Below are positions 1-51,152 of a stretch of 64,000 nucleotides of DNA, one piece after another. This stretch comes from an uncultured Clostridia bacterium (GTDB lineage: Bacteria > Bacillota > Clostridia > TANB77 > CAG-508). The DNA lies in contig CAKPGC010000001.1 in assembly GCA_934154445.1 (NCBI GenBank), positions 93,414 through 157,413 on the forward strand, given 5' to 3'. A program made the position numbers and the translations under genes. Below the pieces are notes generated by a model. It made no database searches, had not been told where the DNA came from, and saw nothing but the letters and a program-made list of their open reading frames with translations. Position 1 is the first letter of the stretch, and each line of letters begins with the position of its first letter.

Positions 1-193
1 TATCTTTAATATCAAATTCAGAACTTTGTTTTATTCCTACAACATGTGCCTCTTCTAGATTTTTAAGTCTACCAAATGGTACCAAAACTTTACTTCCTAC
101 AAATATCATGTTTTCTAAATTTTTAGGAATATTATAGTCAAATGTTCTATTCAATTTTTTTGCCGTACTATTTATTATTACTTCAGCTACCAT
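1..193 (-). CDS. priA: primosomal protein N' (PriA), N-terminal fragment; gene continues beyond window start
   Basis: Minus-strand translation from the ATG at 191-193 gives MVAEVIINSTAKKLNRTFDYNIPKNL...VGSKVLVPFGRLKN, a PriA-like N-terminus. AAGGAG RBS lies 8 nt upstream. Confidence 0.5.
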   Translation of the reverse strand, partial: MVAEVIINSTAKKLNRTFDYNIPKNLENMIFVGSKVLVPFGRLKNLEEAHVVGIKQSSEFDIKD

Positions 194-326
194 TTTTATC
201 TCCTTGTCCCTCTTTGTTCATTCTACTATATTTTTTAAACTAAATCAATAAATTATTTTCAAAATATTAACTTTTTATTTGCTCTATGTTATAATATTTT
301 TTATAAATTATAATAAAATAAATTAG

Positions 327-1199
327 GTGAATATTATGAATGAAGAAAAATTTCAAGTAACAAAAAAGGCTGGAATTTTAGGTATTATTGGAAATATATT
401 TTTATTAATTATAAAAGCAATTGCTGGTTTTACTTTTAAAAGTCAATCAATGATTGCAGACAGTTTTAATAGTGCTGGTGATATTTTTTCATCACTAATG
501 ACTTTTATTGGGAACAGAATTGCAAGTGTTCCTAATGATGAAGATCACAATTTTGGTCATGGTAAAGCTGAATATATTTTTTCGATGTTTATTGGAATAT
601 CTATGATTTTTGTAGCTGCAAAATTATTTTATGATTCTATTAGTACTTTAATTTTAGGAAGCAATCTTAAATTTTCATGGCTTTTGGTTTTTGTTTGTAT
701 AATAACAATATTAGTTAAATCATTGTTATATTTATATACTAAAAAGGCCTATAAAAAGCATGCAAGTATTTTATTAGAATCAAATATGAAGGATCATAGA
801 AATGATTGTATTGTAACATTTTTTACATTAATTTCTATTTTACTTACTTTGCTAGGAATTTACTGGTTTGATGGAGTTGTTGGAATTGGTATTTCTATTT
901 GGATTGGTTATACCGGCATTACTATTTTTATTGAAAGCTATAATGTTTTAATGGATATATCTCTTGAGGGCAAAGATAAAGATGTTATTTTGGATATAAT
1001 TAATGGATATAAAGAAATTAAAAAAATAGAAAATATTTCGTCAGTTCCTGTTGGAGCACAATATATGGTTTTTGTTACAATTTGTTTAGACGGAAATATG
1101 TCAACATTTGAAAGTCATAAGTTGGCTGATAATTTGGAAAAAAATATTTCTGCTTTAGATGTTGTTTATAAGACTATTGTTCATGTTGATCCAGTATAA
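327..1199 (+). CDS. cation diffusion facilitator (CDF) family metal efflux transporter
   Basis: 290 aa with multiple TM helices and the CDF signature HNFGHGKAEY; GGTGA RBS; TATAAT promoter upstream. Confidence 0.85.
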   Translation: MNIMNEEKFQVTKKAGILGIIGNIFLLIIKAIAGFTFKSQSMIADSFNSAGDIFSSLMTFIGNRIASVPNDEDHNFGHGKAEYIFSMFIGISMIFVAAKLFYDSISTLILGSNLKFSWLLVFVCIITILVKSLLYLYTKKAYKKHASILLESNMKDHRNDCIVTFFTLISILLTLLGIYWFDGVVGIGISIWIGYTGITIFIESYNVLMDISLEGKDKDVILDIINGYKEIKKIENISSVPVGAQYMVFVTICLDGNMSTFESHKLADNLEKNISALDVVYKTIVHVDPV

Positions 1200-1299
1200 A
1201 ATTTAAGTAACAATAATAAATAAAAAACGAACCCAAATTATTAAACGTTTTTGTCTAATAATTTGGGTTCACTTCAATTCTGTATGTTACATTTTTTAT

Positions 1300-3309
1300 T
1301 TAAAAAGCTAAGCAAACACGGAATCCACAAGATGGATCTCCCTGTCCTTGACTCATTCCATAAGCAAAAATTCCTCCACTGGTAACTGCCATATAATATG
1401 CTCCACGTGCTAAAGTTGGTACATCCGAAGTACAGAAAGTAGCATTATCAGAATTCCAACCTGAAGTTTCATTTGTCGCATCTCCTATTTTGTTGTTTTC
1501 AGAAATTAATGTTACATATTTTGTACTTTTTGTTGTATTAGAATTAGCCATTGCACTATGCCATTGAGGTGTACTTGCTGCCCCTCCAGTATAAAATCCT
1601 GCAGTTCTTTCCCATACGCAACCATTTAAATCAAATACACCTGTCACGTTTTTTGTACTACTTGCTAATACATCATTTGGTTTATCACTATCCCCATAAC
1701 TTGTAACCGCATATACATTAGCTTTGACACCCGTTGAACTATCATTGTTCACATATACGCTATTATTTAAATTCTTTTTGTTTGTTGCTACCTCATTCAT
1801 ATTTGAATTTTTTCCATCCACCCCATATTTACTTTGTGTTAAATAAGAAATAGCTCCCCATTCGCTATTTTTCATCAAATGACTATTGGTTCCACTTAAC
1901 CCATACATACTTGCTTTGTCTATTTCTTGTGATAGTAAATATGCATCTCCAATGCTTATTAAATCATAAGCATAAGTATTTGCTTTAAATACCGGATATG
2001 ACATATTAGTATTAGTCGTTAATGAAGCAGTTAAAAAATTACTTGTATATCCATTTAAATCTGTATATTTCAATTTTGAATACTCTACAGTTTTTGTTTC
2101 TTCACCTATAGTAGAATTTTGATATCCTGCTACATATTTTGCGACCCAAATTCCTGTTAACTCTTTATCCCATCCTCCATTTACATATTCTATTTTTGAC
2201 TCATCAGTAAATGCTGGATGTACTATATATACATCTCTATTTGTATCAGGATAATTGTTTTCTTTTGTTGCTCTTTGTGCTTTTTGTAATTTACCATTTG
2301 CATCATAATAGTAATCTGTTGTCCCTATTAAAAAAACAACATCTATAATTTTATTTGTGTCATCAATTTTATATGCGTATCTTGGTATCCATACCCAATT
2401 GCTTCCATCTTTACTTTGCACATTTGCCCATCTTTTTTCTTCATAATTATACCACTGTGAATCTGTTGATGTTGTTTGTACTATCTGGAAATTTTCACTT
2501 TCTGTATCTTCTACGAATTTTACTGGTATCATTTTATCAGTTAATTTTGGATTATTAACATTGTTATAATCACAAGCAATAACCGTATTTGTACCTAAAT
2601 CTATTTCATCTCCATAAACAACTTTAACATTATAAATTCCTTGTTCACTTACATAAAAAGATAATTCGTTACTTGTCTTCCAAGTATCACTATCTATAAT
2701 TTTATATTTAACCGTCCAATTATTAATATAACCATTATATATAATATTTGAGACTTCTATTTTATATTTGTTTTTTTCTTTTGTTGTATTTACATCAAAT
2801 GTGCCTGTCTTTTCATTTTTATCTTTATAACGTACATTATAAAATCCATTTTCGACTTGATCTATCATATAGTATATTGTTCCCTCGTATTCAAATCCAT
2901 CAGGAAAAACAACATATCTATATTCAACATTTATTAAATAATTTCTTTTTATGCTATCTAATTTTAAATCCTCTTGAATGCACTTTTTATCAAAATATCT
3001 AAATCCATCACGGATTTTCTGTTTTTCTTCATCAGATGAAACATCTTTGTAAATTATGTCTGATACTAAATCAAGTTTTGATTTTAGCTCGTCTTCGTCT
3101 GTTAGTTTTTTTCCTATTTCATTTTCATTACTCTGGTTTAATTCATTAACTTTATTTTGCAATACTTTTAATTCACTTTTGAATTTAACAAATGATGCTG
3201 AATCAAGTGTTGAAGTTCCAACTGTAACTCCAACAGAGGCTAATATAAGTATTAATATTACTGCTGTTAATAAAGCTATTAAAGTTACACCTTTTTCTTT
3301 TGACCTCAT
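1300..3309 (-). CDS. secreted/membrane-anchored protein: prepilin-like N-terminus fused to a C-terminal FGE-sulfatase (SUMF1/EgtB/PvdO-type) domain
   Basis: Start re-placed at the internal ATG (MRSKEKGVTLIALL...) with a GAGGAGG RBS, because the track ORF's 5' extension overlaps a tRNA. N-terminus resembles a class III signal (KG-VTLIALL) but lacks Glu+5. C-terminus carries FGE-domain motifs NGCVWERT, RGAYY and CGFRVC. Confidence 0.6.
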   Translation of the reverse strand: MRSKEKGVTLIALLTAVILILILASVGVTVGTSTLDSASFVKFKSELKVLQNKVNELNQSNENEIGKKLTDEDELKSKLDLVSDIIYKDVSSDEEKQKIRDGFRYFDKKCIQEDLKLDSIKRNYLINVEYRYVVFPDGFEYEGTIYYMIDQVENGFYNVRYKDKNEKTGTFDVNTTKEKNKYKIEVSNIIYNGYINNWTVKYKIIDSDTWKTSNELSFYVSEQGIYNVKVVYGDEIDLGTNTVIACDYNNVNNPKLTDKMIPVKFVEDTESENFQIVQTTSTDSQWYNYEEKRWANVQSKDGSNWVWIPRYAYKIDDTNKIIDVVFLIGTTDYYYDANGKLQKAQRATKENNYPDTNRDVYIVHPAFTDESKIEYVNGGWDKELTGIWVAKYVAGYQNSTIGEETKTVEYSKLKYTDLNGYTSNFLTASLTTNTNMSYPVFKANTYAYDLISIGDAYLLSQEIDKASMYGLSGTNSHLMKNSEWGAISYLTQSKYGVDGKNSNMNEVATNKKNLNNSVYVNNDSSTGVKANVYAVTSYGDSDKPNDVLASSTKNVTGVFDLNGCVWERTAGFYTGGAASTPQWHSAMANSNTTKSTKYVTLISENNKIGDATNETSGWNSDNATFCTSDVPTLARGAYYMAVTSGGIFAYGMSQGQGDPSCGFRVCLAF

Positions 3310-3335
3310 AATTCCTCCTCTGTATAAAAAATATT

Positions 3336-3410
3336 TGGCTGGGGTACTGTGATTCGAACACAGGAATGTCGGAGTCAGAGTCCGATGCCTTACCGCTTGG
3401 CGATACCCCA
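3336..3410 (-). tRNA. tRNA-Gln (anticodon CUG)
   Basis: Hand-folded cloverleaf: 7-bp acceptor TGGGGTA/TACCCCA, anticodon stem TCGGA/TCCGA, loop CTCTGAC, encoded CCA. Sits 14 nt upstream of the RBS of the 1300..3309 gene, inside the operon. Confidence 0.85.
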
Positions 3411-3519
3411 ATATAAACTTTAATATTTATTTTTATACTACCACAATTTTATAATTTTGTCCATAATTAGATACAATAATTTTAAGGGATTAAAAGTTAT
3501 TTCTCTCAATCCCTTAAGA

Positions 3520-4881
3520 TTATTTCAAATTAAATGTTCCAACATCTTTATTCCATGTGTCTATAACATATTGTTTTTCAGATTTTGGTATTAAAGCAAT
3601 TCTAAATGCAGACATTGGTTTATCTTTTGCATACATACATTCTTGTCCATCTGAACAAACAGATACCCAACCAACGTCATTTACTAATATCTGATATACA
3701 ACAGCGAACTGAGAATAGTCCTTCAATTTAATTTTTATTCCACTAATTCCATAATAATATTCAGATGAAGCAGGAACTGGTTTATTTCCATTTATGTCTG
3801 TAGCATAAAGTGCATTAATTCCACCACCTCCTAATTGGAAATATTTTTTTCCTTTAATCGTTACTAAATCATTTGATTTCATTGATTTATATGTGTTTTT
3901 ACTTGGATTATATCCATGGCTATATAACATATTAGATGTTGTACATCTAGCCATACTTCCTTCTCCCCAATACGTGTGAACATAAGCATTTACCTGTAAA
4001 AAATCATCATCAATATTTCCTGTCACATTAAACGCTAACGCTTCTGTTTTGAATTTAGGATTTTCTCTAACAGCTTCACTTCCCGCTATATCATAATTTC
4101 CATAACCAAATGTCCATCCAATATTTGAGTTGTGTGAAGTATAAACAATATTAATATAAGATGCCTGTGTTATATTAATTTCTATTATTGCTTTATTTCC
4201 TGCATAGTCAAATATTGGCAATTCATAAGAAATATTGTTAGTAAATTCCTTTTCTGCACTTAATTTATCATTTGAAAAATTCCATCCATTTAACTCTCTT
4301 ATTTTTTCACTTACCTTTATAGTTGCATTTACTTTTCCATCAGATATTTTATTTTCAAATAATTTTCCTGCTGGAGCAATATTATCAATTATAATGTTTG
4401 TTTCAATATCTAAGGGTTCATTTTGCAAATTACCAGCATCTTCAGCCGCTCCTTCTATAACTTCTACCTTTAGCTTTCCATCACCACAAATATTGCTTAA
4501 CTCAACTTTATATATAGCTCCATATACTATATCTTGTATTTTGCTAGATTTTACATTTACGTTATCCATGTATTTATTATCAATTTTTGTTTTTATATGT
4601 TCTTTGTCCAAACTTACATTTTTTAAGTTCTTGTCAGTAATCTTTAATTTTATCGTTATTGTATGTGTTTTATTAGCATAATTTTTATAATCAATATTAC
4701 TATTTTGTACACTTACCAACTCTATTTTAGGTTTTGTCCTATCTATATTAATATTAGCTATATAAAACTCATTTTGAAATATATATTTAGCTTGTATAGT
4801 TGTTGATACTGAAATTACAAACATACTTATAAAAAAAATAACTAGTAATTTTCTATAAACTTTATCCTTTATTTTTTTCAC
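3520..4881 (-). CDS. secreted ChW-repeat (clostridial hydrophobic W) surface protein
   Basis: N-terminal signal peptide. C-terminal half has three ChW-like repeats (YTSHNSNIGWTFGYG..., AVVYQILVNDVGWVSV...). Track start is a GTG that abuts the GGAGG and the upstream stop, so the start is uncertain. Confidence 0.55.
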   Translation of the reverse strand: MKKIKDKVYRKLLVIFFISMFVISVSTTIQAKYIFQNEFYIANINIDRTKPKIELVSVQNSNIDYKNYANKTHTITIKLKITDKNLKNVSLDKEHIKTKIDNKYMDNVNVKSSKIQDIVYGAIYKVELSNICGDGKLKVEVIEGAAEDAGNLQNEPLDIETNIIIDNIAPAGKLFENKISDGKVNATIKVSEKIRELNGWNFSNDKLSAEKEFTNNISYELPIFDYAGNKAIIEINITQASYINIVYTSHNSNIGWTFGYGNYDIAGSEAVRENPKFKTEALAFNVTGNIDDDFLQVNAYVHTYWGEGSMARCTTSNMLYSHGYNPSKNTYKSMKSNDLVTIKGKKYFQLGGGGINALYATDINGNKPVPASSEYYYGISGIKIKLKDYSQFAVVYQILVNDVGWVSVCSDGQECMYAKDKPMSAFRIALIPKSEKQYVIDTWNKDVGTFNLK

Positions 4882-4884
4882 CTC

Positions 4885-5508
4885 CTATATAATCTCCTCT
4901 CCTAACGCATACACATCAAATTGATATTTTTTAATTTTTTCTGAATCTTTTGTGTCTTGAATATCCGTAGCTTCTTCATTTTTCTTATCTTCATAATTCC
5001 AATACCATTTTATTGTAATATTTATATTTTCATCTTTATTTATACATCCTACCAACCTTCTAGATAATTCTTCTAAAGTATTCGTCTCTTCTAATATTTG
5101 ATTATTTTTCAAAGCCATAAATTTTAAATTTTTTGGTTTATCATTTATACTATGAAATTCAATTCTATATTTCAAATTTTGGTTTGAATATAATAAAATA
5201 TTGAAGCTTCCACTTGTACCTGGTGCAATTTTTTCATATATAAGTGTATTCTTGTCTATTGTATCTACTAAATTTAATGACTTGAAATCCAAATTTTTAT
5301 AACTTATTTTAAAGTTATATATCTTTTCATTTTTGTTATTTTCTATATTATTTGTTTGAGATATTCCATTTGAAAATATTTTTATAAATAAAAAATCATC
5401 AAATTTATCTATATTCATTGAATTTTTTGAGAAAAATATTATTATGAATAAAATTATTAGAATTAAAATCAATATTAATTTAAAAATTATCTTTTTCTTA
5501 CTTTTCAT
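4885..5508 (-). CDS. secreted ~200-aa protein, paralog of the 6198..6791 product; possible TasA/camelysin (peptidase M73)-like fibre subunit
   Basis: N-terminal TM anchor. Mature region aligns with the 197-aa paralog (KIAPGTSGSFNILL vs KIAPGTEGNFQIKL; KPKNLKF vs KPTNLKF; KWYWNYE vs DWYWKYE; YQFDVYALG vs YTFDVIVSG). AGGTGA RBS. Confidence 0.5.
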   Translation of the reverse strand: MKSKKKIIFKLILILILIILFIIIFFSKNSMNIDKFDDFLFIKIFSNGISQTNNIENNKNEKIYNFKISYKNLDFKSLNLVDTIDKNTLIYEKIAPGTSGSFNILLYSNQNLKYRIEFHSINDKPKNLKFMALKNNQILEETNTLEELSRRLVGCINKDENINITIKWYWNYEDKKNEEATDIQDTKDSEKIKKYQFDVYALGEEII

Positions 5509-5517
5509 GATATCACC

Positions 5518-6087
5518 TTATGCCTTTACTTGTTCTGTATGAACTTTTACTTGAATTTTCTCCATAATATCATTAATAGTATTTGATTTATTTTTATCAT
5601 AAGTAATTTTTATTGTATATTCTCTTTCTTCTTTTTGATTTTTTAAGATTTGTATATATTCAGTTTTATTATTGTTTAAGTTAATCTTCTTTTCACCTTG
5701 ATATAGTTCTATATTTATCGAATTATCAGTATTAGATAATATTTCGATATAATATTTTAAATCAGTTTGTGTTATTTGATTTTTTTCATTATAATTTTTT
5801 ATTTTAAATGTATATATACCATAATTATTTGCTGCAGTTATATCTATACTTGGATTGTTTTCAACCAATAAAATTGGTTCAGCAATCTCTGCTTTTCCTT
5901 TTATAACAATGTCTTCTATGGACTTTGCCATACTATACCCACAAAATAGTAATAGAAGTATTATGAAAATTACTAAAATTCCAGTTAAAATTCTGGAATC
6001 TTTTTTACCAGTATTTTCTTTACTACATATTTTTCCTTTTTTTATTATAGGTAAATTGGTACAGCTTATATTTTCTTTTTTATTCAT
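5518..6087 (-). CDS. membrane-anchored hypothetical protein
   Basis: Start moved to the internal ATG (MNKKENIS...), which has a strong AAAGGAGG RBS. Single TM helix then an Asn/Lys-rich domain. No recognisable family. Confidence 0.45.
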   Translation of the reverse strand: MNKKENISCTNLPIIKKGKICSKENTGKKDSRILTGILVIFIILLLLFCGYSMAKSIEDIVIKGKAEIAEPILLVENNPSIDITAANNYGIYTFKIKNYNEKNQITQTDLKYYIEILSNTDNSINIELYQGEKKINLNNNKTEYIQILKNQKEEREYTIKITYDKNKSNTINDIMEKIQVKVHTEQVKA

Positions 6088-6197
6088 ACAACCTCCTTTT
6101 AGTAGAAGCCAGATATTACGTTTTTTTGGAAGCCATAACATCTGACTTCTAATATTTAAATATATAATTTTATTTTCATATTTTTTACATTTTAAAA

Positions 6198-6791
6198 TTA
6201 ATTTTTAGGCATAACCTGTGTTCCAGATACAATAACATCAAAAGTATAATTATTCATTTGTTTAGCATTTTGAGTATCAATCAAATCGTTTGATTTAATT
6301 TCTTGTTCTGTACTTCCTGTTTCATACTTCCAATACCAATCAACAGATAATGTTTTTATTTTGTTTTCTTCATTTGCATTTATTGTTCCTATTAAATCTT
6401 GTTGTAAATCTGTTAAAGAGTTATATGTTTTTCCATCATATACAAACTTTAAATTTGTTGGTTTTTGAGATTCATTTTCAAATTTTATAACATAATTAAC
6501 TCCCACTTCTGAACCAGTTGCATCTAATTTTATTTGAAAATTTCCTTCAGTACCTGGGGCAATTTTACTACTTACTAATGTTGAATTATTTATTGTGGAT
6601 TTTAAGGAAATTGTTTGCATTTTTTCTTCATTTTCATTTACTTTAAAACTCCAGCTTGCTATATCAGCTGTTCCTTTTCCTGTTACTTTGGACATGTATT
6701 TTGCATATACTTGTCCTCCTGCAAATGATAATAATATTGCAATAATTGCAATAGCCAATAATACTATTTTTTTATTTTTTCTCAATAGCAT
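6198..6791 (-). CDS. secreted protein with SipW-cognate-like signal peptide; TasA/CalY/camelysin-like
   Basis: Signal ...LLSFAGGQVYAKYMS resembles the TasA/CalY GGGT-AAF motif. ~200 aa with PGT.G.F and W..YE motifs, paralogous to 4885..5508. First gene after the promoter at 6909-6937. Confidence 0.5.
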   Translation of the reverse strand: MLLRKNKKIVLLAIAIIAILLSFAGGQVYAKYMSKVTGKGTADIASWSFKVNENEEKMQTISLKSTINNSTLVSSKIAPGTEGNFQIKLDATGSEVGVNYVIKFENESQKPTNLKFVYDGKTYNSLTDLQQDLIGTINANEENKIKTLSVDWYWKYETGSTEQEIKSNDLIDTQNAKQMNNYTFDVIVSGTQVMPKN

Positions 6792-6908
6792 TCCTCCCTC
6801 TTATTCAATTTTTTAATTTGGATTTTTTTATTTGAATTTTGATTTAAGCAAAGTTCTTTTGAACCGCTTTTTGAATTAAATTTATAAAAAATATGAAAAT
6901 GTATTTAG

Positions 6909-6937
6909 ATTATACTTCCAAACAAGCAGTTTGTCAA
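6909..6937 (-). promoter_or_regulatory. sigma-A type promoter (TTGACA-N17-TATAAT) for the secreted-protein operon; Spo0A-box-like TGTCGAA just upstream
   Basis: Minus strand reads TTATTGACAAACTGCTTGTTTGGAAGTATAATC. A 0A-box-like TGTCGAA lies at 6947-6953, flanked by a GTTTGTCA...TGACAAAC inverted repeat. Confidence 0.5.
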
Positions 6938-6988
6938 TAAAAACATTTCGACAAAAAATGACAAACCACTTGTTTTATAAACTATTTT

Positions 6989-7375
6989 TTAGCTTCTATT
7001 AACCCCAATTATTCCTCCTAAAATACCAAAAATAACTGCTATCGCAATCATTATTAAAGATTGTATATTTAAAGAAAATCTCCAATTTAAAATACTAGAT
7101 ATTAAATAAATTAATATCATATATAAAGCACCTATTATTCCGCCATTTGCTAGACCATTTTTTCTTATTTTTACATTGCCTAATGAGCTTCCTATTAATA
7201 TACTTATGGCAGTTATTATCATTATTACCGGATTTATTACGTTTTCTTGTATGTTTGTATATGTCAATATAATTGAGAATATTATTAGCATAATTAGTGT
7301 TGTAATTAAAGAAATTCCTACACCTTTTAATATGTTTATTAATGTTTTGTTTTCTTTCATTTGCATATTTTCCAT
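6989..7375 (-). CDS. small multi-pass membrane protein (TIGR04086-like)
   Basis: 128 aa with 4 predicted TM helices and a glycine-rich C-terminus. Confidence 0.5.
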   Translation of the reverse strand: MENMQMKENKTLINILKGVGISLITTLIMLIIFSIILTYTNIQENVINPVIMIITAISILIGSSLGNVKIRKNGLANGGIIGALYMILIYLISSILNWRFSLNIQSLIMIAIAVIFGILGGIIGVNRS

Positions 7376-7443
7376 AATATTTCCTCCAAAATTTTATTTA
7401 ATAAATTATATTAAAATATCTTTTTAAATATACACTATTATTT

Positions 7444-8247
7444 TTAAATTATATTAATTTTAAATGCTTCAATCCTTAAAGATTTTCCCTCTGTTCCTAT
7501 TCTAATATTTGTACCTTTTGACACAGGCATCCACCCAACATCTTGTATATGCTCTTGAACTTCTAACATTTTGTTAGATTTGATTTCTATAGCTTCTATT
7601 CTCTTACTTTCTCCTGTTGTTCCTGCAATTTGACCATTTTGTACCCAATCAGACCAGCCAATATCTTGTATGTGTACTCTATATGATAAGTCCAATCCAT
7701 TATTCCCTTGTAAAATTATAGCTTCTATTCTTTTATTTTCTCCAGTGGTTCCTGCTGTTTCTCCAGAATTCTCCCAATCCGTCCATCCTTTATCTTGAAT
7801 ATGCACCTTATACATTAGTTGTACTCCATTAATTTTACTTTGATCATTTGCTCTTAATACACCTAAAAAACCTTTATAGTCATGTTGTACTTTACGTACT
7901 GATTTACTTCCCCAATTTAAATCATAAGAATTAAAATTAGATAAATTTCCTTCCCCTGTTGCTATTGATAAATGCCCATAACCATTTCCAACTCCTGATC
8001 CCCATACTGCGATATCTCCTTTTTGTGGTACAAATGATGTGTTATTTGATATTTTTGTGAATGTATCTTTAATTGATAAATTATCAAAATTTTCATAGTA
8101 ATCTTTTGCATTTCCCCATGCTCCGGGTTTTATTCCAAATACTTTATCTAAATACATTTTTATTAAATCTACACATTGTGCTCCTGCTACTCCATCATAA
8201 TCGAATGATTTTCCATTATATGTATTTATAAATTCATTATAATCCAT
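7444..8247 (-). CDS. CHAP-domain peptidoglycan hydrolase with three C-terminal ChW repeats
   Basis: CHAP Cys/His motifs GAQCVDL and GHLSIA. Three repeats of KVHIQDKGWTDWENSGETAGTTGENKRIEAIILQG, matching the ChW consensus. No signal peptide, so endolysin-like. Confidence 0.7.
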   Translation of the reverse strand: MDYNEFINTYNGKSFDYDGVAGAQCVDLIKMYLDKVFGIKPGAWGNAKDYYENFDNLSIKDTFTKISNNTSFVPQKGDIAVWGSGVGNGYGHLSIATGEGNLSNFNSYDLNWGSKSVRKVQHDYKGFLGVLRANDQSKINGVQLMYKVHIQDKGWTDWENSGETAGTTGENKRIEAIILQGNNGLDLSYRVHIQDIGWSDWVQNGQIAGTTGESKRIEAIEIKSNKMLEVQEHIQDVGWMPVSKGTNIRIGTEGKSLRIEAFKINII

Positions 8248-8341
8248 TTTTCCTCCTTTATAATATTATTGTAATTATACATTCTAATTCTATTATGTCA
8301 TTTGTTTTTTTATACTTATTATTTTTTATTATTCAAAGTAA

Positions 8342-8372
8342 AAAACACAAGCATTAATTACTTGTGTTTAAT
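8342..8372 (-). terminator. intrinsic terminator downstream of the tRNA-His/tRNA-Gln pair
   Basis: AAAACACAAG-cattaatta-CTTGTGTTT hairpin followed by a T-run on the minus strand. Confidence 0.5.
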
Positions 8373-8580
8373 CTTTATTTCTATTAATTTTATCTTTCAT
8401 CAATTATATTTTCGTCTATCTTTATGTTGTTTTTTAACCCAATATACGAATTATTAAAATTCATTTTATCAATATTGAAATCTTTTATATTATTTGCCTC
8501 TTCAATTAAACTATTATATAATATTTTTAAGCAAAAAAATAAACAACCTTCAATATCTTATGAAAGTTGCTATTTATTAA

Positions 8581-8655
8581 TGGCTGGGCTGGCTAGATTC
8601 GAACTAGCGCATGCCAGAGTCAAAGTCTGGTGCCTTACCGCTTGGCTACAGCCCA
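8581..8655 (-). tRNA. tRNA-Gln (anticodon UUG)
   Basis: Acceptor TGGGCTG/CAGCCCA, anticodon stem CCAGA/TCTGG, loop CTTTGAC, encoded CCA. Confidence 0.85.
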
Positions 8656-8667
8656 ATATATTACAAA

Positions 8668-8745
8668 TGGGGTGGAAGATGGGACTCGAACCCACGGTCT
8701 CCAGTGCCACAAACTGGCGCGTTAACCAACTACGCTACATCCACC
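8668..8745 (-). tRNA. tRNA-His (anticodon GUG) with 5' G-1
   Basis: Anticodon stem CCAGT/ACTGG, loop TTGTGGC, extra 5' G typical of tRNA-His, T-loop TTCGAGT, CCA end. Confidence 0.8.
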
Positions 8746-8918
8746 ATAGCTTACGTGCTTGTTTTCTTGGCACTTTTATATTTTAACTCATTTTACCTTA
8801 ATTTGTCAACCCTATTTTTGTATTTTATTTAGTAATATTTGACTAATCTATTTATTCTATGTATAATTATAATGTAAAAAAACTTATAACTATATTAAAA
8901 TAGAGGTATTTAACAAAA

Positions 8919-48800: not shown

Positions 48801-50040
48801 GGAAATAAATTCCATATCTACATTATAATACAAAAACATACTAAATTCAATATGTTTACTGAAAATTTAAGCTACACTAAAAAAACTTTATGTAATGTAT
48901 TTTCTATGTGAATTTTTTACATTATTTTGATTAACCATAGCATACTCCATAGTAGTATCTATTTTTATATGTCCTAATAATTTTTGAACTTGTTCTATTG
49001 GCATACCTTTATCAATAGCCATTGTTGCCATTGTTCTTCTAAATTTATGTGGATGAACTTTATTTATATTCGCTTCTTTCCCTAAATTTCTAATTAAAAT
49101 TTTAATCCCTGATATTCCTAATCTGTTATAAGGTTTTATAAGTGATACAAATAATGCTTCATTATCATCAGTTCTTGTTTCAAGATATTTCTTTATATAC
49201 ATTTTACTCTTTGCACTAAAATAAACTTCTCTTTCACTATTACCTTTTCCTAAAACAATACAACTTCTTTCTTGAAAATCCATATCTGATATATTTAATC
49301 TTGTAATTTCTCCAACTCTCATACCAGTTGAAATTAATAGTTCTAATATTGCTAAATCCCTTACATTTGAACAAGTATCTCTTAACTTTTCCAAATTTTC
49401 ATCTGTTAATGTTTCTTTTACTCTTCTAGTAGTCTTTACTTTATGAATTCTTCTTACTGGACTTTTTACAATATAGTCCTCATTTTCCAACCAAGCAAAG
49501 AAACTTGATAAAGTTCTTCTTATATTATCTATCGTTACCATACCTGCATTTGAATTATTTTTATAATCTGCTAAATAGTTTCTTAATGTTTCAGTATTAA
49601 TTTCATTTATTGGCAGGTTTACAGCATCAAACATTTTATTTATAGTATCTCTGTAATAATTTAAAGTTCTTTTTGAACACCCTTCGATTTCTTTAGATGA
49701 TATAAACCTATTTAGAATGTCTTCATTATTCCTCTGTATTTCTTCTTTTTGACTTTGTTCTAATTTCTCAATTTTATAATATAAACATATTTCTGTAAGT
49801 GTTTCTTTTAATTTTATTCTTTGGTTATTGTCTAAAAAATCTTCTGTTGCATTAATTACTTTTTCCACAAATAATTCTCTCATGACAATTACCTCCTTAC
49901 ATTTTTTTGATAGTTTGCAGTATATAGAACTCTATCTATATTATACAATATTTAATTGACATAATAAAAGATGAGCATATTTTATATACCCATCCAAATA
50001 TTTATATTTTTTTCAAATTTCAAAATTCAATCTCAGCGAC
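48801..50040. repeat. integrase module, copy 1 (about 1.24 kb: downstream hairpin, integrase gene, about 150 bp upstream region); repeated at 53321..54372
   Basis: Near-identical flanks (GGAAATAAATTCCATATCTACATTATAAT... and ...CAATCTCAGCGACAAATTAC) bound both integrase genes. Confidence 0.7.
48888..49883 (-). CDS. tyrosine-type site-specific recombinase/integrase (XerC/D-phage integrase family), intact copy
   Basis: 331 aa; box I ...STGMRVGE..., box II HPHKFRRT...LLGH...T..Y. Confidence 0.85.
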   Translation of the reverse strand: MRELFVEKVINATEDFLDNNQRIKLKETLTEICLYYKIEKLEQSQKEEIQRNNEDILNRFISSKEIEGCSKRTLNYYRDTINKMFDAVNLPINEINTETLRNYLADYKNNSNAGMVTIDNIRRTLSSFFAWLENEDYIVKSPVRRIHKVKTTRRVKETLTDENLEKLRDTCSNVRDLAILELLISTGMRVGEITRLNISDMDFQERSCIVLGKGNSEREVYFSAKSKMYIKKYLETRTDDNEALFVSLIKPYNRLGISGIKILIRNLGKEANINKVHPHKFRRTMATMAIDKGMPIEQVQKLLGHIKIDTTMEYAMVNQNNVKNSHRKYIT

Positions 50041-50327
50041 AAATTACTATTCATTTATTATAAGTTTATTTTTTTGACTCTTTATCTTTAAATAGATATA
50101 ATAAATATAGAAAATAACAAATCCACAAAAGTGGTTTTGCCGAATCAAGTTTGAAAAAACTCACACCTAACTCGCCAAAGTTACAGATGTAAGTTTTTTT
50201 TATTTATGTAGTTGCTTATCACTCCAGTTTTGTATAAGAACTGCTGTCAACGCAACGTTTAATGTTAAAGAAAACATTAAGGATGATATTAAAAATAGTA
50301 TCACTTTAATCATAAACAATTGTCACA

Positions 50328-51107
50328 CTAATCTCCAATTACTTCTATTGATTTTATTCTTAATTCATCCAAAGGTATATTTGAATTTTCATATTGTACT
50401 TTTACAATTTTTTCTCTCTGTAAATTTCCTATTATTTCAGTATTCTCTGTTATATATGCTTTTAACGCAAATGGAAAATTATAACCAGTATCAGAATTAG
50501 TATCATCCTCTAAACTATATTTTAAATAAACATATCCTGATTCTACATACTCATCGCCAATAGTTACAATTGAAGAATATGTCCTTTTTCCTGTTAATGC
50601 ATCTCTTTTCATTTGATTATAGTCGTTTGATTTTAAAACAATAATCGAATTATCTTTAGTATCAAAAGTATTCTCTCCTATACCATAGCCTTTTTTACTT
50701 AAATCCCCACTACAAATCAATATGTCTCCTTCTTGTATATAGCTTGTATCATATTCCTTCAATGTAAAATAATCTAAACATTTTTGATTTTTATTATTAA
50801 TATTGGATCTAGTATATTCTTTCATCTCAAAACCAAATTCTCCAAAATGTTGTCCATTAAAAATATAAATATATCCATTATGATTTAGTTCCACTATCCC
50901 TTGAATAACTGTATCTTTAATTACTTCTGTAGTTTCATCTTTTTTAGACATATCATATATAATATTTCCTTCTTTATCATAAATAACAGAATACTTATTA
51001 GAATTTTCTGTTTTATCTGTTTTTTTATCTTTATTAAAAAATACTACACCACATAAAAATATTACTAATATAGTACAAATTACAAAAATAATAATTTTTT
51101 TCTTCAT
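50328..51107 (-). CDS. membrane-anchored hypothetical protein (island cargo)
   Basis: Track start is TTG; re-placed at ATG 51107 (GAAGG RBS); N-terminal TM. Confidence 0.45.
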   Translation of the reverse strand: MKKKIIIFVICTILVIFLCGVVFFNKDKKTDKTENSNKYSVIYDKEGNIIYDMSKKDETTEVIKDTVIQGIVELNHNGYIYIFNGQHFGEFGFEMKEYTRSNINNKNQKCLDYFTLKEYDTSYIQEGDILICSGDLSKKGYGIGENTFDTKDNSIIVLKSNDYNQMKRDALTGKRTYSSIVTIGDEYVESGYVYLKYSLEDDTNSDTGYNFPFALKAYITENTEIIGNLQREKIVKVQYENSNIPLDELRIKSIEVIGD

Positions 51108-51152
51108 ATACAAACCTTCTTTCGACAAATTACTAAATTGTAATTTGTTGCT

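What the first reader, a model, noticed from the sequence alone, without database searches (positions are those of the whole stretch)
1300..8247. tRNA-flanked operon of secreted fibre/surface proteins with an embedded tRNA-Gln(CUG)
A TTGACA-N17-TATAAT promoter at 6909-6937 carries a Spo0A-box-like TGTCGAA and a GTTTGTCA/TGACAAAC inverted repeat. Five co-oriented genes follow with 3-60 nt gaps:
- a TasA/camelysin-like 197-aa protein with a SipW-cognate-like signal (AGGQVYAKY);
- a membrane-anchored 190-aa protein;
- a 207-aa paralog of the first (KIAPGT.G.F, KP.NLKF and WYW.YE conserved);
- a 453-aa ChW-repeat protein;
- a 670-aa protein with a prepilin-like N-terminus (KGVTLIALL, lacking Glu+5) fused to an FGE-sulfatase domain.
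A tRNA-Gln(CUG) gene sits 14 nt upstream of the last gene's SD, apparently inside the transcription unit. No SipW-type signal peptidase or sortase is nearby. The block is bounded by tRNA-Gln(CUG) on one side and tRNA-Gln(UUG)+tRNA-His on the other, and ends with a CHAP-ChW hydrolase and a small membrane protein. It looks like an accessory cell-surface / biofilm-matrix locus of unknown function.
Basis: partly seen in the sequence, partly recalled or inferred. Interest (0 to 1): 0.65.

Follow-up and report, generated by a model that had tools for sequence, protein, structure and literature searches.

The report
SipW-type surface-fibre operon, RNA-bracketed
This is a conserved chromosomal operon of an uncultured human-gut Clostridium that most likely builds a TasA/BsaA-like surface fibre from three unannotated paralogous subunits, with a previously unnoticed conserved RNA helix enclosing the major-subunit gene; the neighbouring tRNA and pilin-like lectin gene form a separate unit.

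Summary
The genes, tRNAs, consensus promoter and P1/P3 paralogy are real.

- **P1, P2 and P3** are paralogs of a large unannotated family of about 1,950 clusters. The best fold match of P1 is the TasA fibre, at borderline significance. In distant genomes the homologous cassette carries a SipW signal peptidase and/or a sortase next to it. No SipW lies in this locus.
- **P4** shares only the "AKY" signal motif. Its ChW assignment fails.
- **P5** is a type IV pilin-like protein, with Ala or Ser at +5 across its family. In this species it has gained an FGE-sulfatase-like C-terminal module, with weak support.
- **The locus** is core in about 20 related species, so it is not a tRNA-bounded island.
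- **tRNA-Gln(CUG)** has its own conserved promoter and starts a separate tRNA–P5 unit.
- **The CHAP-ChW gene** is a species-specific, phage-like endolysin.
- **New observation 1:** the Spo0A-box and promoter are conserved in 12–13 species.
- **New observation 2:** an 18–25 bp helix pairs the 5′ end of the transcript with the P1–P2 spacer, with covariation across 17 species. It probably stabilises or excises the major-subunit mRNA.

The parts
6909..6937 (-). Sigma-A consensus promoter of the P1-P4 operon (TTGACA-17-TATAAT). The expected transcription start is near 6902.
   Evidence: It scores 12/12. The -35 (as TTGACAAAT) and the -10 are invariant in 13 species (A5).
6946..6963 (-). Tandem Spo0A-type boxes: TGTCA at 6963-6959 and TTTGTCGAAA at 6955-6946, one helical turn apart and just upstream of the -35. 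The -35 region read on the other strand (TTTGTCAA) is a third, inverted 0A-like box.
   Evidence: The sequence is shown. TTTGTCGAAA is exact in 12 of 13 species. The 10-mer occurs twice in the window against 0.11 expected.
6883..6900 (-). 5' arm of a long-range RNA helix (AUUUUCAUAUUUUUUAUA), lying 2-3 nt from the predicted 5' end of the transcript.
   Evidence: Seen as repeat I3. Supported (covariation; present in MFE and centroid folds; -16.5 kcal/mol).
6172..6189 (-). 3' arm of the long-range RNA helix (UGUAAAAAAUAUGAAAAU), lying 11 nt after the P1 stop codon in the P1-P2 spacer.
   Evidence: Present 8-83 nt after the P1 stop in 17 species. Six pairs show compensatory changes, and all one-sided changes are U-A to U-G.
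6846..6870 (-). Small conserved hairpin in the 5' UTR (AAGCGGUUC-loop-GAAC..UUGCUU).
   Evidence: RNAalifold on 13 species predicts 9 pairs, one of them compensatory (GC to AU in 2 species), with variable loop length.
6198..6791 (-). P1, 197 aa. Putative major subunit. It has a signal peptide ending GGQVYA|KY, a conserved but unstructured mature N-terminus, and an Ig-like beta-sandwich.
   Evidence: There are no HMM hits. The family has 1,949 50%-identity clusters. The AF2 model has pLDDT 83.9 with its first 13 residues disordered. The top PDB fold hit is TasA fibre 8aur_A, E 1.2e-3, prob 0.98.
5518..6087 (-). P2, 189 aa. Diverged paralog of the N-terminal half of P1, with a long basic n-region, a TM segment, then GYSMA|KS.
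   Evidence: hhalign of the deep P1 profile against P2 orthologs gives prob 96.5%, E 9e-10. The motif is conserved in orthologs.
4885..5508 (-). P3, 207 aa. P1 paralog with an N-terminal TM segment and no AKY-type cleavage motif. Putative membrane-anchored base subunit.
   Evidence: BLASTP gives E 2e-23 and hhalign 99.9%. Orthologs lack the cleavage motif, and distant P3-likes have long cytoplasmic N-termini.
3520..4881 (-). P4, 453 aa. It has the same TTIQA|KY signal motif, an NIDRTKPKIEL Ig-like start, and a clade-restricted C-terminal half. It is not a demonstrable ChW protein.
   Evidence: There are no HMM hits. Tests against local ChW repeats are not significant. Its 36 C-terminal homologs carry no Pfam domain. 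The N-terminal motif is conserved, including in L027 and L028.
3482..3517 (-). Terminator-like hairpin directly after the P4 stop; probable end of the P1-P4 operon.
   Evidence: It has 15 pairs and a weak U tail. Hairpins of different sequence occupy the same place in other species.
3435..3463 (-). The tRNA's own promoter: TGGACA-17-(TG)gTAGTAT, extended -10 type.
   Evidence: The -35 and TG-n-TAATAT columns are conserved or invariant in 7 of 8 species aligned (A6).
3336..3410 (-). tRNA-Gln(CUG), with CCA encoded.
   Evidence: Found by ARAGORN and Rfam at 61 bits. It lies between P4 and P5 in 16 of the 21 related-species genome loci, inverted in two of them.
1300..3309 (-). P5, 669 aa. It has a class-III (type IV pilin)-like N-terminus, MRSKEKG|VTLIA. 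Residues 1-243 form a pilin-like module conserved in the clade. Residues ~250-669 form an FGE-sulfatase/C-type-lectin-like module added in this species.
   Evidence: Profile A3 against PDB hits pilins at E 1.3e-4 and 2.9e-4, 5vf4 at 2.5e-3 and SUMF2 at 0.096. Pfam N_methyl matches 12/48 relatives and FGE-sulfatase 2/48. The +5 residue is A in 28 and S in 14 relatives, never E. Orthologs in other species are mostly ~250 aa.
1226..1273 (-). Strong intrinsic terminator after P5.
   Evidence: A 20-pair stem followed by a T-run.
6989..7375 (-). DUF3792/TIGR04086 four-TM membrane protein. It is a conserved upstream neighbour in a separate transcription unit; its function is unknown.
   Evidence: Pfam E 1.5e-23 and NCBIfam E 1.6e-25. 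It lies upstream of P1 in most related species.
7444..8247 (-). CHAP + 3x ChW endolysin-like gene with no signal peptide. It is a species-specific insertion and not part of the system.
   Evidence: Supported by Pfam and PHROG endolysin E 8e-39. It is absent from all 21 other species. A prophage with a related ChW endolysin sits next to it in strain L003.

Best explanation
Genes P1-P4 (6791-3520, minus strand) form one operon that makes a SipW-type, TasA/BsaA-like cell-surface fibre or matrix.

**Proposed roles**
- **P1** is the abundant subunit. After cleavage at ...VYA|KY..., its conserved but unstructured N-terminus would act as a donor strand for the Ig-like sandwich of the next subunit.
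- **P2** is a truncated paralog. **P3** is an uncleaved, membrane-anchored paralog. Both would be minor subunits: an adaptor or cap, and a base.
- **P4** carries the same cleaved N-terminal motif plus larger Ig-like and C-terminal domains. It would be an accessory or tip component.
- The processing peptidase (SipW) is encoded elsewhere in this clade. It sits inside the homologous cassette in other Clostridia.

**Transcription and mRNA fate**
- Transcription starts at a perfect sigma-A promoter flanked by conserved Spo0A-type boxes. Control by Spo0A is inferred. Repression is more plausible than activation, because the promoter already matches consensus.
- The extreme 5' end of the mRNA pairs with a site just after the P1 stop codon, an 18-25 bp helix. 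This encloses the P1 cistron.
- I infer that the helix protects, or lets RNase III excise, a stable monocistronic P1 mRNA. The major subunit would then outnumber P2-P4.

**The downstream unit**
- The operon ends at a hairpin after P4.
- tRNA-Gln(CUG) follows with its own promoter. In this species it is probably co-transcribed with P5.
- P5 is a type IV pilin-like protein without Glu5 that has gained a lectin-like FGE-sulfatase-fold domain. It is a separate surface adhesin whose link to the fibre is only positional.

**Shown:** gene structures, paralogy, synteny, SipW/sortase association of homologs, promoter and box conservation, and helix covariation.

**Inferred:** fibre formation by donor-strand exchange, subunit roles, Spo0A binding, and the effect of the helix on mRNA fate.
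For: **Paralogy**
- P1 vs P3: E 2e-23.
- P1 vs P2: hhalign 96.5%, E 9e-10.

**Shared signal motif**
- P1, P2 and P4 share a post-TM motif x-A-K-[YS]. It occurs nowhere else in the six-frame translation of the window.
- The motif is conserved in orthologs and in distant cassettes.
- It has the same T-aromatic-A|x-aromatic pattern as the TasA cleavage site ...TWA|AFND. The mature TasA sequence was verified against 8aur.

**Fold**
- The AF2 model of mature P1 has pLDDT 83.9 and its N-terminal 13 residues are disordered.
- The top Foldseek PDB hit is TasA fibre 8aur_A (E 1.2e-3, prob 0.98). PapD-like domains, CfaB and a PapG pilin domain (2wmp) follow; FimG ranked high only with the first, lower-quality model.

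**Genomic association of homologs**
- L027 reads sortase, LPXTG/Cna-B protein, P1, SipW (TIGR02228, 86 bits, above cut-off), P2, P3, P4-like.
- L032 has SipW directly upstream of the P1 homolog.
- L039 has several P1-family paralogs around a SipW.
- L028 and L037 have a sortase directly upstream.
- This is the neighbourhood pattern reported for the BsaA/TasA family: multiple paralogs per operon, with signal peptidase and sortase genes (10.1101/2024.11.04.621531).

**Fusions**
- The P1 domain is fused to large surface proteins (P0410, P0404, P0373).

**Promoter**
- The promoter and Spo0A boxes are conserved in 12-13 species.
- The 10-mer TTTGTCGAAA is enriched in the window.
- A spore photoproduct lyase gene lies in the window.

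**RNA helix**
- 93% of cells are paired, and 6 pairs carry double changes.
- All one-sided changes in the core are U-G compatible.
- 0 of 500 shuffles reach the observed values, and slid controls pair at 43-65%.
- The helix appears in both the MFE and the centroid fold of the 754-nt transcript.
- The duplex energy is -16 to -22 kcal/mol. Cross-species arm swaps lose about 5-11 kcal/mol.
Against: - No sequence-level link to TasA or Peptidase_M73 was found. Pfam and NCBIfam are silent for P1-P4 and for 82 family members. The profile against PDB does not find TasA. hhalign against TasA aligns only IAPGT with LKPGD.
- The fold match is borderline: TM 0.39, and no hit at E <= 0.001. It is shared with generic Ig-like sandwiches.
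- No SipW, sortase or LPXTG motif is present in the 64-kb window. The cleavage sites also fit an ordinary type I signal peptidase.
- Oligomerisation could not be modelled.
- The transcription start and the RNA helix are predictions. A 12/12 promoter plus an inverted repeat flanking a gene could also indicate an invertible DNA segment.
- The A7 alignment was anchored on the motif, so it leans towards the proposed structure.
Confidence: 0.55

Rival explanations
1. P1-P4 are secreted or membrane-anchored Ig-like surface proteins that do not polymerise. They could be a cell-envelope complex or individual adhesin stalks. The shared N-terminal motif would be only a signal-peptidase recognition site.
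For: The P1 domain occurs as the N-terminal module of single giant surface proteins of 841-3,136 aa, which is easier to reconcile with an anchoring or stalk domain. There is no HMM link to TasA, and the fold similarity is borderline.
Against: The operon holds three paralogs plus an anchored one, as in bsa/tasA-type operons. SipW sits inside the homologous cassettes. The mature N-terminus is strongly conserved yet predicted to be disordered. The top fold hit is specifically the fibre form of TasA.
Confidence: 0.2
2. The 18-25 bp inverted repeat flanking P1 is a DNA inversion site (an inverton). A recombinase would flip the P1 gene relative to the promoter, giving phase variation of the major subunit. 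It would not be an RNA helix.
For: Perfect inverted repeats bracket a surface-protein gene just downstream of a strong promoter. Two tyrosine recombinase paralogs are present in the window. Covariation of the two arms is also expected for recombinase half-sites.
Against: All 27 loci, covering 6 strains and 21 species, show P1 in the same orientation as P2-P4. Every one-sided substitution in the helix core is A to G on the 3' arm, which keeps a G-U pair in RNA but makes a mismatch in DNA. The distance of the right arm from the stop codon varies from 8 to 83 nt, while the left arm stays fixed at the predicted 5' end of the transcript. The direct search for an inverted junction was uninformative, because the JGI collection lacks this species.
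Confidence: 0.1
3. The cluster is functionally tied to a type IV pilus / type II-like secretion apparatus. P5 would be a (tip) pseudopilin, and P1-P4 would be cargo pushed through the wall, as reported for PilA3-dependent BsaC/BsaA secretion in C. perfringens.
For: P5's N-terminus matches pilin alpha-1 helices. The P4-tRNA-P5 order is conserved in 16 of the 21 related-species loci. There is a precedent in 10.1101/2024.11.04.621531. Absence of Glu5 is typical of a first or tip subunit (own knowledge of GspK-type minor pilins).
Against: No PilB, PilC or PilD is in the window. P5-family members elsewhere are solitary genes among housekeeping genes. Distant P1-P4 cassettes have no P5. P5 lies in a separate transcription unit.
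Confidence: 0.1
4. This is a horizontally acquired accessory island inserted between tRNA genes.
For: tRNA genes lie on both sides. A phage-type endolysin is adjacent, and a prophage sits at the same tRNA in one strain.
Against: The order MutS2, tRNA-His/Gln, DUF3792, P1-P4, tRNA-Gln(CUG), P5, CDF, PriA is conserved across about 20 species, with 47-80% protein identity that tracks the flanking housekeeping genes. There is no compositional break. Only the CHAP-ChW gene behaves as an insertion.
Confidence: 0.03

Closest known systems
Bacillus subtilis tapA-sipW-tasA operon (TasA donor-strand fibres; PDB 8aur, 5of1)
   Same: Both have a signal peptide with the T-aromatic-A|x-aromatic cleavage pattern and an Ig-like or jelly-roll sandwich subunit with a free N-terminal strand. 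Both have a major subunit plus an anchoring or nucleating accessory protein. Both are under sporulation/biofilm master-regulator control; in Bacillus this is indirect, through Spo0A acting on AbrB and SinI (own knowledge). The best PDB fold hit of P1 is the TasA fibre.
   Different: There is no detectable sequence homology and no Peptidase_M73 match. SipW is not in the operon. This operon has three paralogs plus a 453-aa fourth protein instead of TapA. The Spo0A-type boxes sit directly on the promoter. The major-subunit cistron is enclosed by an RNA helix.
Clostridium perfringens sipW-bsaA-bsaB-bsaC operon (BsaA/TasA family; Obana 2020 PMC7395162; Kivimaki 2025 bioRxiv 10.1101/2024.11.04.621531)
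   Same: Both are clostridial and have several very divergent TasA-like paralogs in one operon. BsaA fibres are membrane-anchored and have no LPXTG motif. Family neighbourhoods are rich in signal peptidase and sortase genes, which matches the contexts of P1 homologs. Both are positionally or functionally associated with a type IV pilin.
   Different: There is no vWA protein (BsaC) and no cis SipW here. An N-E-K isopeptide triad was not identified. Whether the P1 family falls inside the 2,172-member BsaA set of that paper was not tested.
Modular type IV pilins (e.g. Streptococcus sanguinis PilB/PilC) and Glu5-less minor pilins (GspK type). Own knowledge.
   Same: P5 has a class-III-like leader K-G|[VI]-T-L, a long alpha-1 helix matching solved pilins, a small pilin-size module, and a grafted binding domain.
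   Different: The +5 residue is Ala or Ser throughout the family. The N_methyl HMM score is below its cut-off. No pilus machinery is nearby. Family members are usually solitary genes.
FGE-sulfatase / C-type-lectin-fold binding domains (SUMF2 1y4j; DGR variable protein 5vf4)
   Same: The weak profile hits fall exactly on the HLMKNSEWGA...GVFDLNGCVWE region. The motifs occur in the order IP..Y.YK, W.AKY, SEW, G..DL.G..WE, RG.Y, GFR, as in FGE-sulfatase domains (order recalled from memory). The same module is repeated in giant P1-domain proteins.
   Different: It falls below Pfam thresholds. There is no template repeat or reverse transcriptase in the window and no 3'-end hypervariability, so it is not a DGR target. 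No catalytic role is implied.
5'/3'-UTR pairing of B. subtilis hbs mRNA (PMC5737220) and selective RNA processing and stabilisation in clostridial cip-cel operons (PMC4423207)
   Same: A structure at mRNA ends or intergenic sites is used to set the stability of one cistron, and hence the subunit stoichiometry of an extracellular multi-protein assembly.
   Different: Here a single long-range helix spanning about 710 nt joins the very 5' end to the first intergenic spacer of a polycistronic mRNA and encloses only the first cistron. Its processing has not been shown.
tRNA-mRNA co-transcripts such as E. coli thrU-tyrU-glyT-thrT-tufB (own knowledge)
   Same: The tRNA promoter drives a downstream protein gene with no intervening terminator (15 nt to the SD here; similar in L008, L021, L015 and L026).
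   Different: The arrangement is not conserved as a unit. The tRNA is inverted in L014 and L019 and followed by its own terminator hairpin in L009 and L010.

Membership tests
TasA/camelysin (Pfam Peptidase_M73) | Match to the family HMM or detectable sequence homology to TasA | tested here: not met
   There is no hit for P1, P2 or P3 at E <= 0.1, and none among 82 family members. The profile against PDB does not find TasA. hhalign against TasA gives prob 0.2%.
TasA/BsaA superfamily (structural) | Ig-like or jelly-roll sandwich resembling TasA, with a free N-terminal donor strand | tested here: inconclusive
TasA/BsaA superfamily (genomic) | Association with a SipW-type (archaeal/ER-type) signal peptidase | tested here: inconclusive
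   The feature is met in homologous cassettes: L027 (TIGR02228, 86 bits), L032 and L039. It is not met in this window or in the roughly 20 syntenic species. The rest of the genome was not available.
TasA/BsaA superfamily (mechanistic) | Polymerisation by donor-strand exchange | not testable with these tools
   No multimer prediction was available.
SipW-cognate signal peptide (NCBIfam TIGR04088) | HMM match | tested here: not met
   There is no hit at E <= 1. Only a pattern resemblance exists: G-x-T-x-A-K-Y against G-T-W-A-A-F.
ChW repeat (PF07538), claimed for P4 | HMM match, or significant similarity to the bona fide ChW repeats of the neighbouring endolysin | tested here: not met
   Pfam gives nothing. 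BLASTP gives E 0.017-0.03. A P4 HMM against the ChW proteins scores 3 bits. hhalign gives prob 2.5%. None of the 36 homologs carries a Pfam domain.
FGE-sulfatase (PF03781), claimed for the P5 C-terminus | HMM match at or above the gathering score | tested here: not met
   P5 itself has no hit. Two of 48 relatives match sub-threshold, best E 0.0014.
FGE-sulfatase / C-type lectin fold | Profile or fold similarity to solved members | tested here: inconclusive
   Profile A3 hits 5vf4 at E 2.5e-3 and SUMF2 1y4j at E 0.096, both on the signature region.
Type IV pilin (class III signal, PF07963 N_methyl) | N-terminal G|[FMVI]-T-L-x-E motif with a hydrophobic alpha-1 helix | tested here: inconclusive
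   P5 scores 14.5 bits against a cut-off of 21.2. Twelve of 48 relatives match N_methyl. The profile hits solved pilins at E 1.3e-4 and 2.9e-4 over about 60 residues.
Type IV pilin | Glu at +5 | tested here: not met
   The +5 residue is Ala in 28, Ser in 14 and another residue in 4 relatives; it is never Glu.
Type IV pilin | Prepilin peptidase and assembly ATPase in the genome or locus | tested here: inconclusive
   A regex scan found none in the 64-kb window, and none near P5 relatives. The rest of the genome was not available.
Spo0A-regulated promoter | 0A box TGTCGAA near the promoter, conserved in relatives | tested here: met
   TTTGTCGAAA is exact in 12 of 13 species, and a second TGTC(G/A) box lies 10 nt upstream. 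The 10-mer is enriched in the window. Binding itself was not tested.
Long-range RNA helix (5' leader with P1-P2 spacer) | Base-pair covariation beyond shuffled and slid controls | tested here: met
   Six pairs carry double changes, 93% of cells are paired, 0 of 500 shuffles reach the observed values, and slid controls pair at 43-65%. The alignment was anchored on the motif, so it leans towards the proposed structure.
CHAP-ChW endolysin (the 267-aa neighbour) | CHAP and ChW HMM matches | tested here: met
   CHAP scores 35 bits against a cut-off of 26, and ChW scores 138.7 bits in 3 repeats. PHROG endolysin gives E 8e-39.

The most novel reading that the evidence does not exclude
The P1 family has about 1,950 clusters at 50% identity, no Pfam or NCBIfam model, and is often fused to giant adhesins. 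It could be an unrecognised, widespread branch of SipW-processed donor-strand fibres in gut Clostridia, built as heteropolymers: P3 as the membrane base, P1 as the shaft, and P2 and P4 as adaptor and tip. In this clade the subunit stoichiometry would be set by a new kind of device: a conserved long-range helix joining the 5' end of the operon mRNA to the first intergenic spacer, so that the major-subunit cistron is excised or stabilised as an end-paired mRNA. The invariant Lys that becomes the mature N-terminus (A|K-Y in P1, P2 and P4) might in addition form an intermolecular isopeptide lock, as proposed for BsaA.
Probability: 0.3. Interest if true: 0.7.

Novelty: new variant of a known kind. 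Interest (0 to 1): 0.55.

Why it matters
TasA/BsaA-type fibres are the protein scaffolds of Gram-positive biofilms, but they are annotated almost only in Bacillus and a few clostridia. This locus shows that abundant uncultured human-gut Clostridia (the Hadza, Nepali and other cohorts these MAGs come from) carry a conserved, entirely unannotated version with three paralogous subunits. It also shows that the family reaches thousands of clusters, often next to SipW or a sortase.

That gives a concrete handle for annotating many "hypothetical" surface proteins. It also gives a testable model for how gut commensals build adhesive matrices.

The covarying 5'-end/intergenic helix is a compact, testable example of post-transcriptional stoichiometry control in a fibre operon. 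The Glu5-less pilin-like lectin family (over 4,000 relatives) is a second unannotated class of surface protein.

Tried and rejected
1. **DGR hypothesis for the P5 C-terminus** (best PDB hit 5vf4). The 64-kb window has no repeat of the P5 3' end, and strain variation is not concentrated at the 3' end. Rejected.
2. **Direct test of DNA inversion.** I scanned JGI metagenome contigs for the predicted inverted junction and found 0 hits. The native-junction control also gave 0 hits.
4. **hhalign of the P1-family profile against the verified TasA sequence.** Nothing was found.
5. **ChW tests for P4.** All were non-significant: BLASTP, HMM, hhalign and a homolog Pfam survey.
6. **Rfam scan of 1-9000.** Only the three tRNAs were found, and no known leader or riboswitch.
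7. **Search for the 5'/3' bracket in distant cassettes** (L039, L041, L032) with RNAduplex. Results were not distinguishable from shuffles (one search timed out). The helix is documented only in the CAG:389-like clade, including L025.
8. **Source names or annotations for the seven proteins.** None exist in the collection.
9. **The GTTTGTCA/TGACAAAC inverted repeat as an operator.** It is not conserved as an inverted repeat. It is better read as tandem plus inverted 0A-like boxes.

Full report
**1. What is in the sequence**

| Feature | Coordinates | Size |
|---|---|---|
| CHAP-ChW protein | 7444-8247 | 267 aa |
| DUF3792/TIGR04086 membrane protein | 6989-7375 | 128 aa |
| P1 | 6198-6791 | 197 aa |
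| P2 | 5518-6087 | 189 aa |
| P3 | 4885-5508 | 207 aa |
| P4 | 3520-4881 | 453 aa |
| tRNA-Gln(CUG) | 3336-3410 | |
| P5 | 1300-3309 | 669 aa |
| tRNA-Gln(UUG) | 8581-8655 | |
| tRNA-His | 8668-8744 | |

- The real P2 start is the ATG at 6087, behind an AAGGAGG.
- The promoter TTGACA-17-TATAAT at 6937-6909 is the only 12/12 match in the 11 kb scanned.
- One detail is wrong: the P1-P2 spacer is about 110 nt, not 60 nt or less.

**2. The family assignments do not survive HMM searches**

- Pfam, NCBIfam and PHROGs give nothing for P1-P5. The only exception is a sub-threshold N_methyl hit on P5 (14.5 bits against a cut-off of 21.2).
- There is no Peptidase_M73 hit, no TIGR04088 hit, no ChW hit in P4 and no FGE-sulfatase hit in P5.
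- Only the CHAP-ChW and DUF3792 assignments are confirmed.
- None of the proteins carries a name in any public source.

**3. Where the locus comes from, and whether it is accessory**

- The identical P1 protein is on record on contigs in 55 blocks of the collection; 22 of these contigs were read, and the six shown are gut-metagenome assemblies, Hadza samples among them.
- A genome scan found the cassette in 21 species-level genomes of uncultured Clostridia, such as Clostridium sp. CAG:389 and UMGS1516.
- In the longer loci that reach the flanks the gene order is MutS2, tRNA-His/tRNA-Gln(UUG), DUF3792, P1, P2, P3, P4, tRNA-Gln(CUG), P5, cation-efflux gene, PriA.
- Base composition shows no break across the region.
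- The locus is therefore core for this clade, not an island delimited by tRNAs.
- Only the CHAP-ChW gene is species-specific. It has no signal peptide and matches phage endolysins at E 8e-39.
- In one strain (L003), a prophage sits directly beside the CHAP-ChW gene, and the tRNA-His/tRNA-Gln(UUG) pair found about 330 nt upstream of it in L001 and L005 is absent from the 8.5 kb upstream. The prophage's Amidase_2-ChW endolysin shares 81% identity with the ChW half of the CHAP-ChW protein.
- I read the CHAP-ChW gene as a lysis-module remnant at a phage integration hot spot.

**4. P1, P2 and P3 are one family; P4 shares its N-terminus**

- Profile-profile comparison links P2 to P1 (prob 96.5%, E 9e-10) and P3 to P1 (99.9%).
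- P1, P2 and P4 share a motif immediately after the hydrophobic segment: ...VYA|KYM, ...SMA|KSI and ...IQA|KYI.
- About 10 residues later comes (A)[DE]IA.[WP].[FL].V.
- The A-K-[YS] motif occurs nowhere else in the six-frame translation of the window.
- It is conserved in all orthologs and in distant cassettes.
- P3 orthologs lack this motif. Distant P3-likes have long cytoplasmic N-termini, so P3 is probably an uncleaved, membrane-anchored member.
- The P1 family is large: 1,949 clusters at 50% identity at E <= 0.001. No member matches a Pfam family convincingly.
- Some members are the N-terminal domain of giant surface proteins carrying Listeria-Bacteroides repeats, GLUG motifs and repeated FGE-like modules.

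**5. Is P1 TasA-like?**

At sequence level the answer is no:
- The family profile does not find TasA in the PDB.
- hhalign against the TasA sequence, which I verified as identical to 8aur_A, aligns only IAPGT with LKPGD.

Structure gives borderline support:
- With an 87-sequence alignment, the AlphaFold2 model of mature P1 is good (pLDDT 83.9, pTM 0.77). Its first 13 residues are disordered.
- Its best Foldseek match in the PDB is the TasA fibre 8aur_A (E 1.2e-3, prob 0.98, TM 0.39).
- PapD-like domains and donor-strand pilins follow. No hit reaches E <= 0.001 (the earlier shallow model is).

The strongest evidence is genomic:
- **L027** (roe-deer caecum MAG, P1 47% identical): the order is sortase, LPXTG/Cna-B protein, P1, SipW, P2, P3, P4-like. 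The 145-aa SipW scores 86 bits on TIGR02228, above its cut-off.
- **L032:** a SipW lies directly upstream of the P1 homolog.
- **L039:** a P3-like, a P2-like and two P1-like genes surround a SipW.
- **L028 and L037:** a sortase lies directly upstream.
- This is the neighbourhood pattern described for the very divergent BsaA/TasA family in C. perfringens and beyond. That pattern includes several paralogs per operon, signal peptidase and sortase genes, and membrane-anchored fibres without LPXTG (10.1101/2024.11.04.621531).

The cleavage pattern is also shared. TasA is cut at ...T-W-A|A-F-N-D and P1 would be cut at ...Q-V-Y-A|K-Y-M-S. The family consensus is G-x-T-x-A-K-Y.

My conclusion is that P1-P3 work like TasA/BsaA subunits, but membership of Peptidase_M73 is not demonstrated. 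No SipW is present in this window or in the syntenic loci.

**6. P4**

- The ChW reading rests on motif resemblance only (Y..H....GW......AG....EA).
- BLASTP against the neighbouring genuine ChW repeats gives E 0.017-0.03.
- A P4-ortholog HMM scores 3 bits on them.
- hhalign gives prob 2.5%.
- The C-terminal half has only 36 relatives, none with a Pfam domain.
- In L027 the P4 homolog has the same N-terminus but a different, beta-helix-like C-terminus.
- P4 is best described as an accessory subunit with a variable distal domain.

**7. P5**

- A 48-sequence profile matches the N-terminal ~60 residues of solved type IV pilins (Geobacter PilA-N E 1.3e-4; PilE1 E 2.9e-4).
- It also matches, weakly, the signature region of C-type-lectin/FGE-fold proteins (5vf4 E 2.5e-3; SUMF2 E 0.096).
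- Pfam N_methyl matches 12 of 48 relatives and FGE-sulfatase matches 2 of 48.
- The leader is K-G|[VI]-T-L-[IV]-[AS]-L. The +5 residue is Ala in 28, Ser in 14 and another residue in 4 relatives, and is never Glu.
- Orthologs in most related species are only about 250 aa, so just residues 1-243 are conserved. The 420-residue lectin-like module is an addition in this species.
- That module is 50-60% identical to the C-termini of otherwise different pilin-like proteins. Those proteins are solitary genes among housekeeping genes.
- There is no sign of a diversity-generating retroelement.
- One strain has a frameshifted P5.

**8. Transcription units**

Operon promoter:
- An alignment of the P1 upstream region from 13 species shows that four elements are conserved: a second TGTC(G/A) box, the box TTTGTCGAAA (exact in 12 of 13), the -35 as TTGACAAAT, and the -10.
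- The 10-mer occurs twice in the window against 0.11 expected.
- The organism carries a spore photoproduct lyase gene, so Spo0A is plausible.
- Direct Spo0A control is a reasonable inference. Because the promoter already matches consensus perfectly and a third 0A-like box overlaps the -35, repression seems more likely than activation. This is inference only.

End of the operon and the tRNA:
- A hairpin follows the P4 stop. Hairpins of unrelated sequence occupy the same place in other species.
- tRNA-Gln(CUG) has its own conserved promoter, TGGACA-17-TG.TA(A/G)TAT at 3463-3435.
- The tRNA is inverted in L014 and L019 and is followed by its own terminator hairpin in L009 and L010.
- The tRNA is therefore not embedded in the operon.
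- In this species, and in L008, L021, L015 and L026, P5's ribosome-binding site follows the tRNA within 15-50 nt with no terminator between them. P5 is probably made from a tRNA-mRNA co-transcript, as tufB is in E. coli (own knowledge).

**9.

- The invariant leader sequence ACAUUUUCAUAUUUUUUAUA (6902-6883) lies 2-3 nt from the predicted transcription start.
- It is the reverse complement of a sequence in the P1-P2 spacer, UGUAAAAAAUAUGAAAAU (6189-6172), 11 nt after the P1 stop.
- The complementary site is present 8-83 nt after the P1 stop in 17 species, giving 14-25 contiguous pairs.
- On a 17-species alignment of the two arms, 93% of cells pair and 6 of 21 pairs show compensatory double changes. 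Examples are U-A to C-G and U-A to A-U in L025, and U-A to C-G in L019.
- Every one-sided change in the core is U-A to U-G.
- No shuffle out of 500 reaches the observed values, and slid registers pair at only 43-65%.
- The caveat is that the alignment was anchored on the motif.
- The helix closes the whole P1 cistron in both the MFE and the centroid fold of the 754-nt transcript.
- The duplex is worth -16.5 kcal/mol here and -16 to -22 kcal/mol elsewhere. Swapping arms between L025 and L017 loses 5-11 kcal/mol.

Interpretation:
- The G-U-only pattern argues for an RNA constraint rather than a DNA constraint.
- All 27 loci have the same orientation of P1, which argues against an invertible DNA segment.
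- The direct junction search was uninformative.
- I propose that the helix sequesters the 5' end and/or provides an RNase III site. Either would yield a stable P1 mRNA and a high ratio of major to minor subunits.
- This is analogous in purpose to the hbs 5'/3'-UTR interaction (PMC5737220) and to selective RNA processing and stabilisation in clostridial cellulosome operons (PMC4423207). It differs in geometry.

**10. Verdict**

- It is wrong on the ChW assignment, on operon structure, on the role of the tRNAs and on accessory status.
- The locus is a new, unannotated variant of the TasA/BsaA kind of system, with an additional covarying RNA element.
- Interest is moderate to good at 0.55. The main uncertainty is that fibre formation and RNA processing are inferred, not shown.

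Noticed in passing
window 7444-8247; L003 30-8027: The CHAP-ChW gene is present only in this species. In strain L003, a prophage sits directly beside it; the tRNA-His/tRNA-Gln(UUG) pair that lies about 330 nt upstream of the CHAP-ChW gene in L001 and L005 is missing from the 8.5 kb upstream. The prophage has a tail-fibre gene, an Amidase_2-ChW endolysin 81% identical in its ChW part, and an HTH regulator. The site looks like a phage integration hot spot that has kept an endolysin remnant.
   Followed up: partly
window 48887-50051 and 53394-54368: Two tyrosine-recombinase (phage-integrase family) paralogs lie here, at 48888-49883 and 53404-54198. Their DNA is 82-90% identical, and they form direct repeats about 4.3-4.5 kb apart. 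They flank TatD, GNAT, ASCH and small genes. This could be a duplicated or mobile segment.
   Followed up: partly
window 51120-51129: A second exact copy of the extended Spo0A-box 10-mer TTTGTCGAAA lies at the start of an unannotated 266-aa ORF (50328-51128) that has no Pfam hit. Two copies against 0.11 expected by chance.
   Followed up: no
window 6846-6870: A small conserved hairpin lies in the P1 5' UTR (AAGCGGUUC / GAAC..UUGCUU). It has one compensatory pair and a variable loop across 13 species. Its function is unknown.
   Followed up: partly
L006 6328-8348: In one metagenome strain, P5 is split by a frameshift into 494-aa and 150-aa ORFs. This suggests the lectin-bearing pilin-like gene is dispensable or phase-variable in vivo.
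   Followed up: no
L014 13249-13323; L019 7273-7347: tRNA-Gln(CUG) keeps its position between P4 and P5 but is inverted in two species. In L009 and L010 it is followed by its own terminator hairpin.
   Followed up: yes
P0410 (3,136 aa), P0142 (1,028 aa): A single giant protein combines the P1-type N-terminal domain with Listeria-Bacteroides repeats and several copies of an FGE-like module (FVWVPV ... GFYIGRYE ... NIYDL.GN..EW ... RGG) resembling the P5 C-terminus. This is a Rosetta-stone-type link between the two families.
   Followed up: partly
window 3320-3335: The 12-mer ATATTTTTTATA directly after the tRNA-Gln(CUG) 3' end repeats the core of the P1 leader arm. It is not conserved in other species, so it is probably chance in AT-rich DNA.
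   Followed up: partly
window 6989-7375: A DUF3792/TIGR04086 four-TM protein lies immediately upstream of P1 in most related species. It is absent from the distant SipW-containing cassettes. Its relation to the fibre operon is unknown.
   Followed up: no
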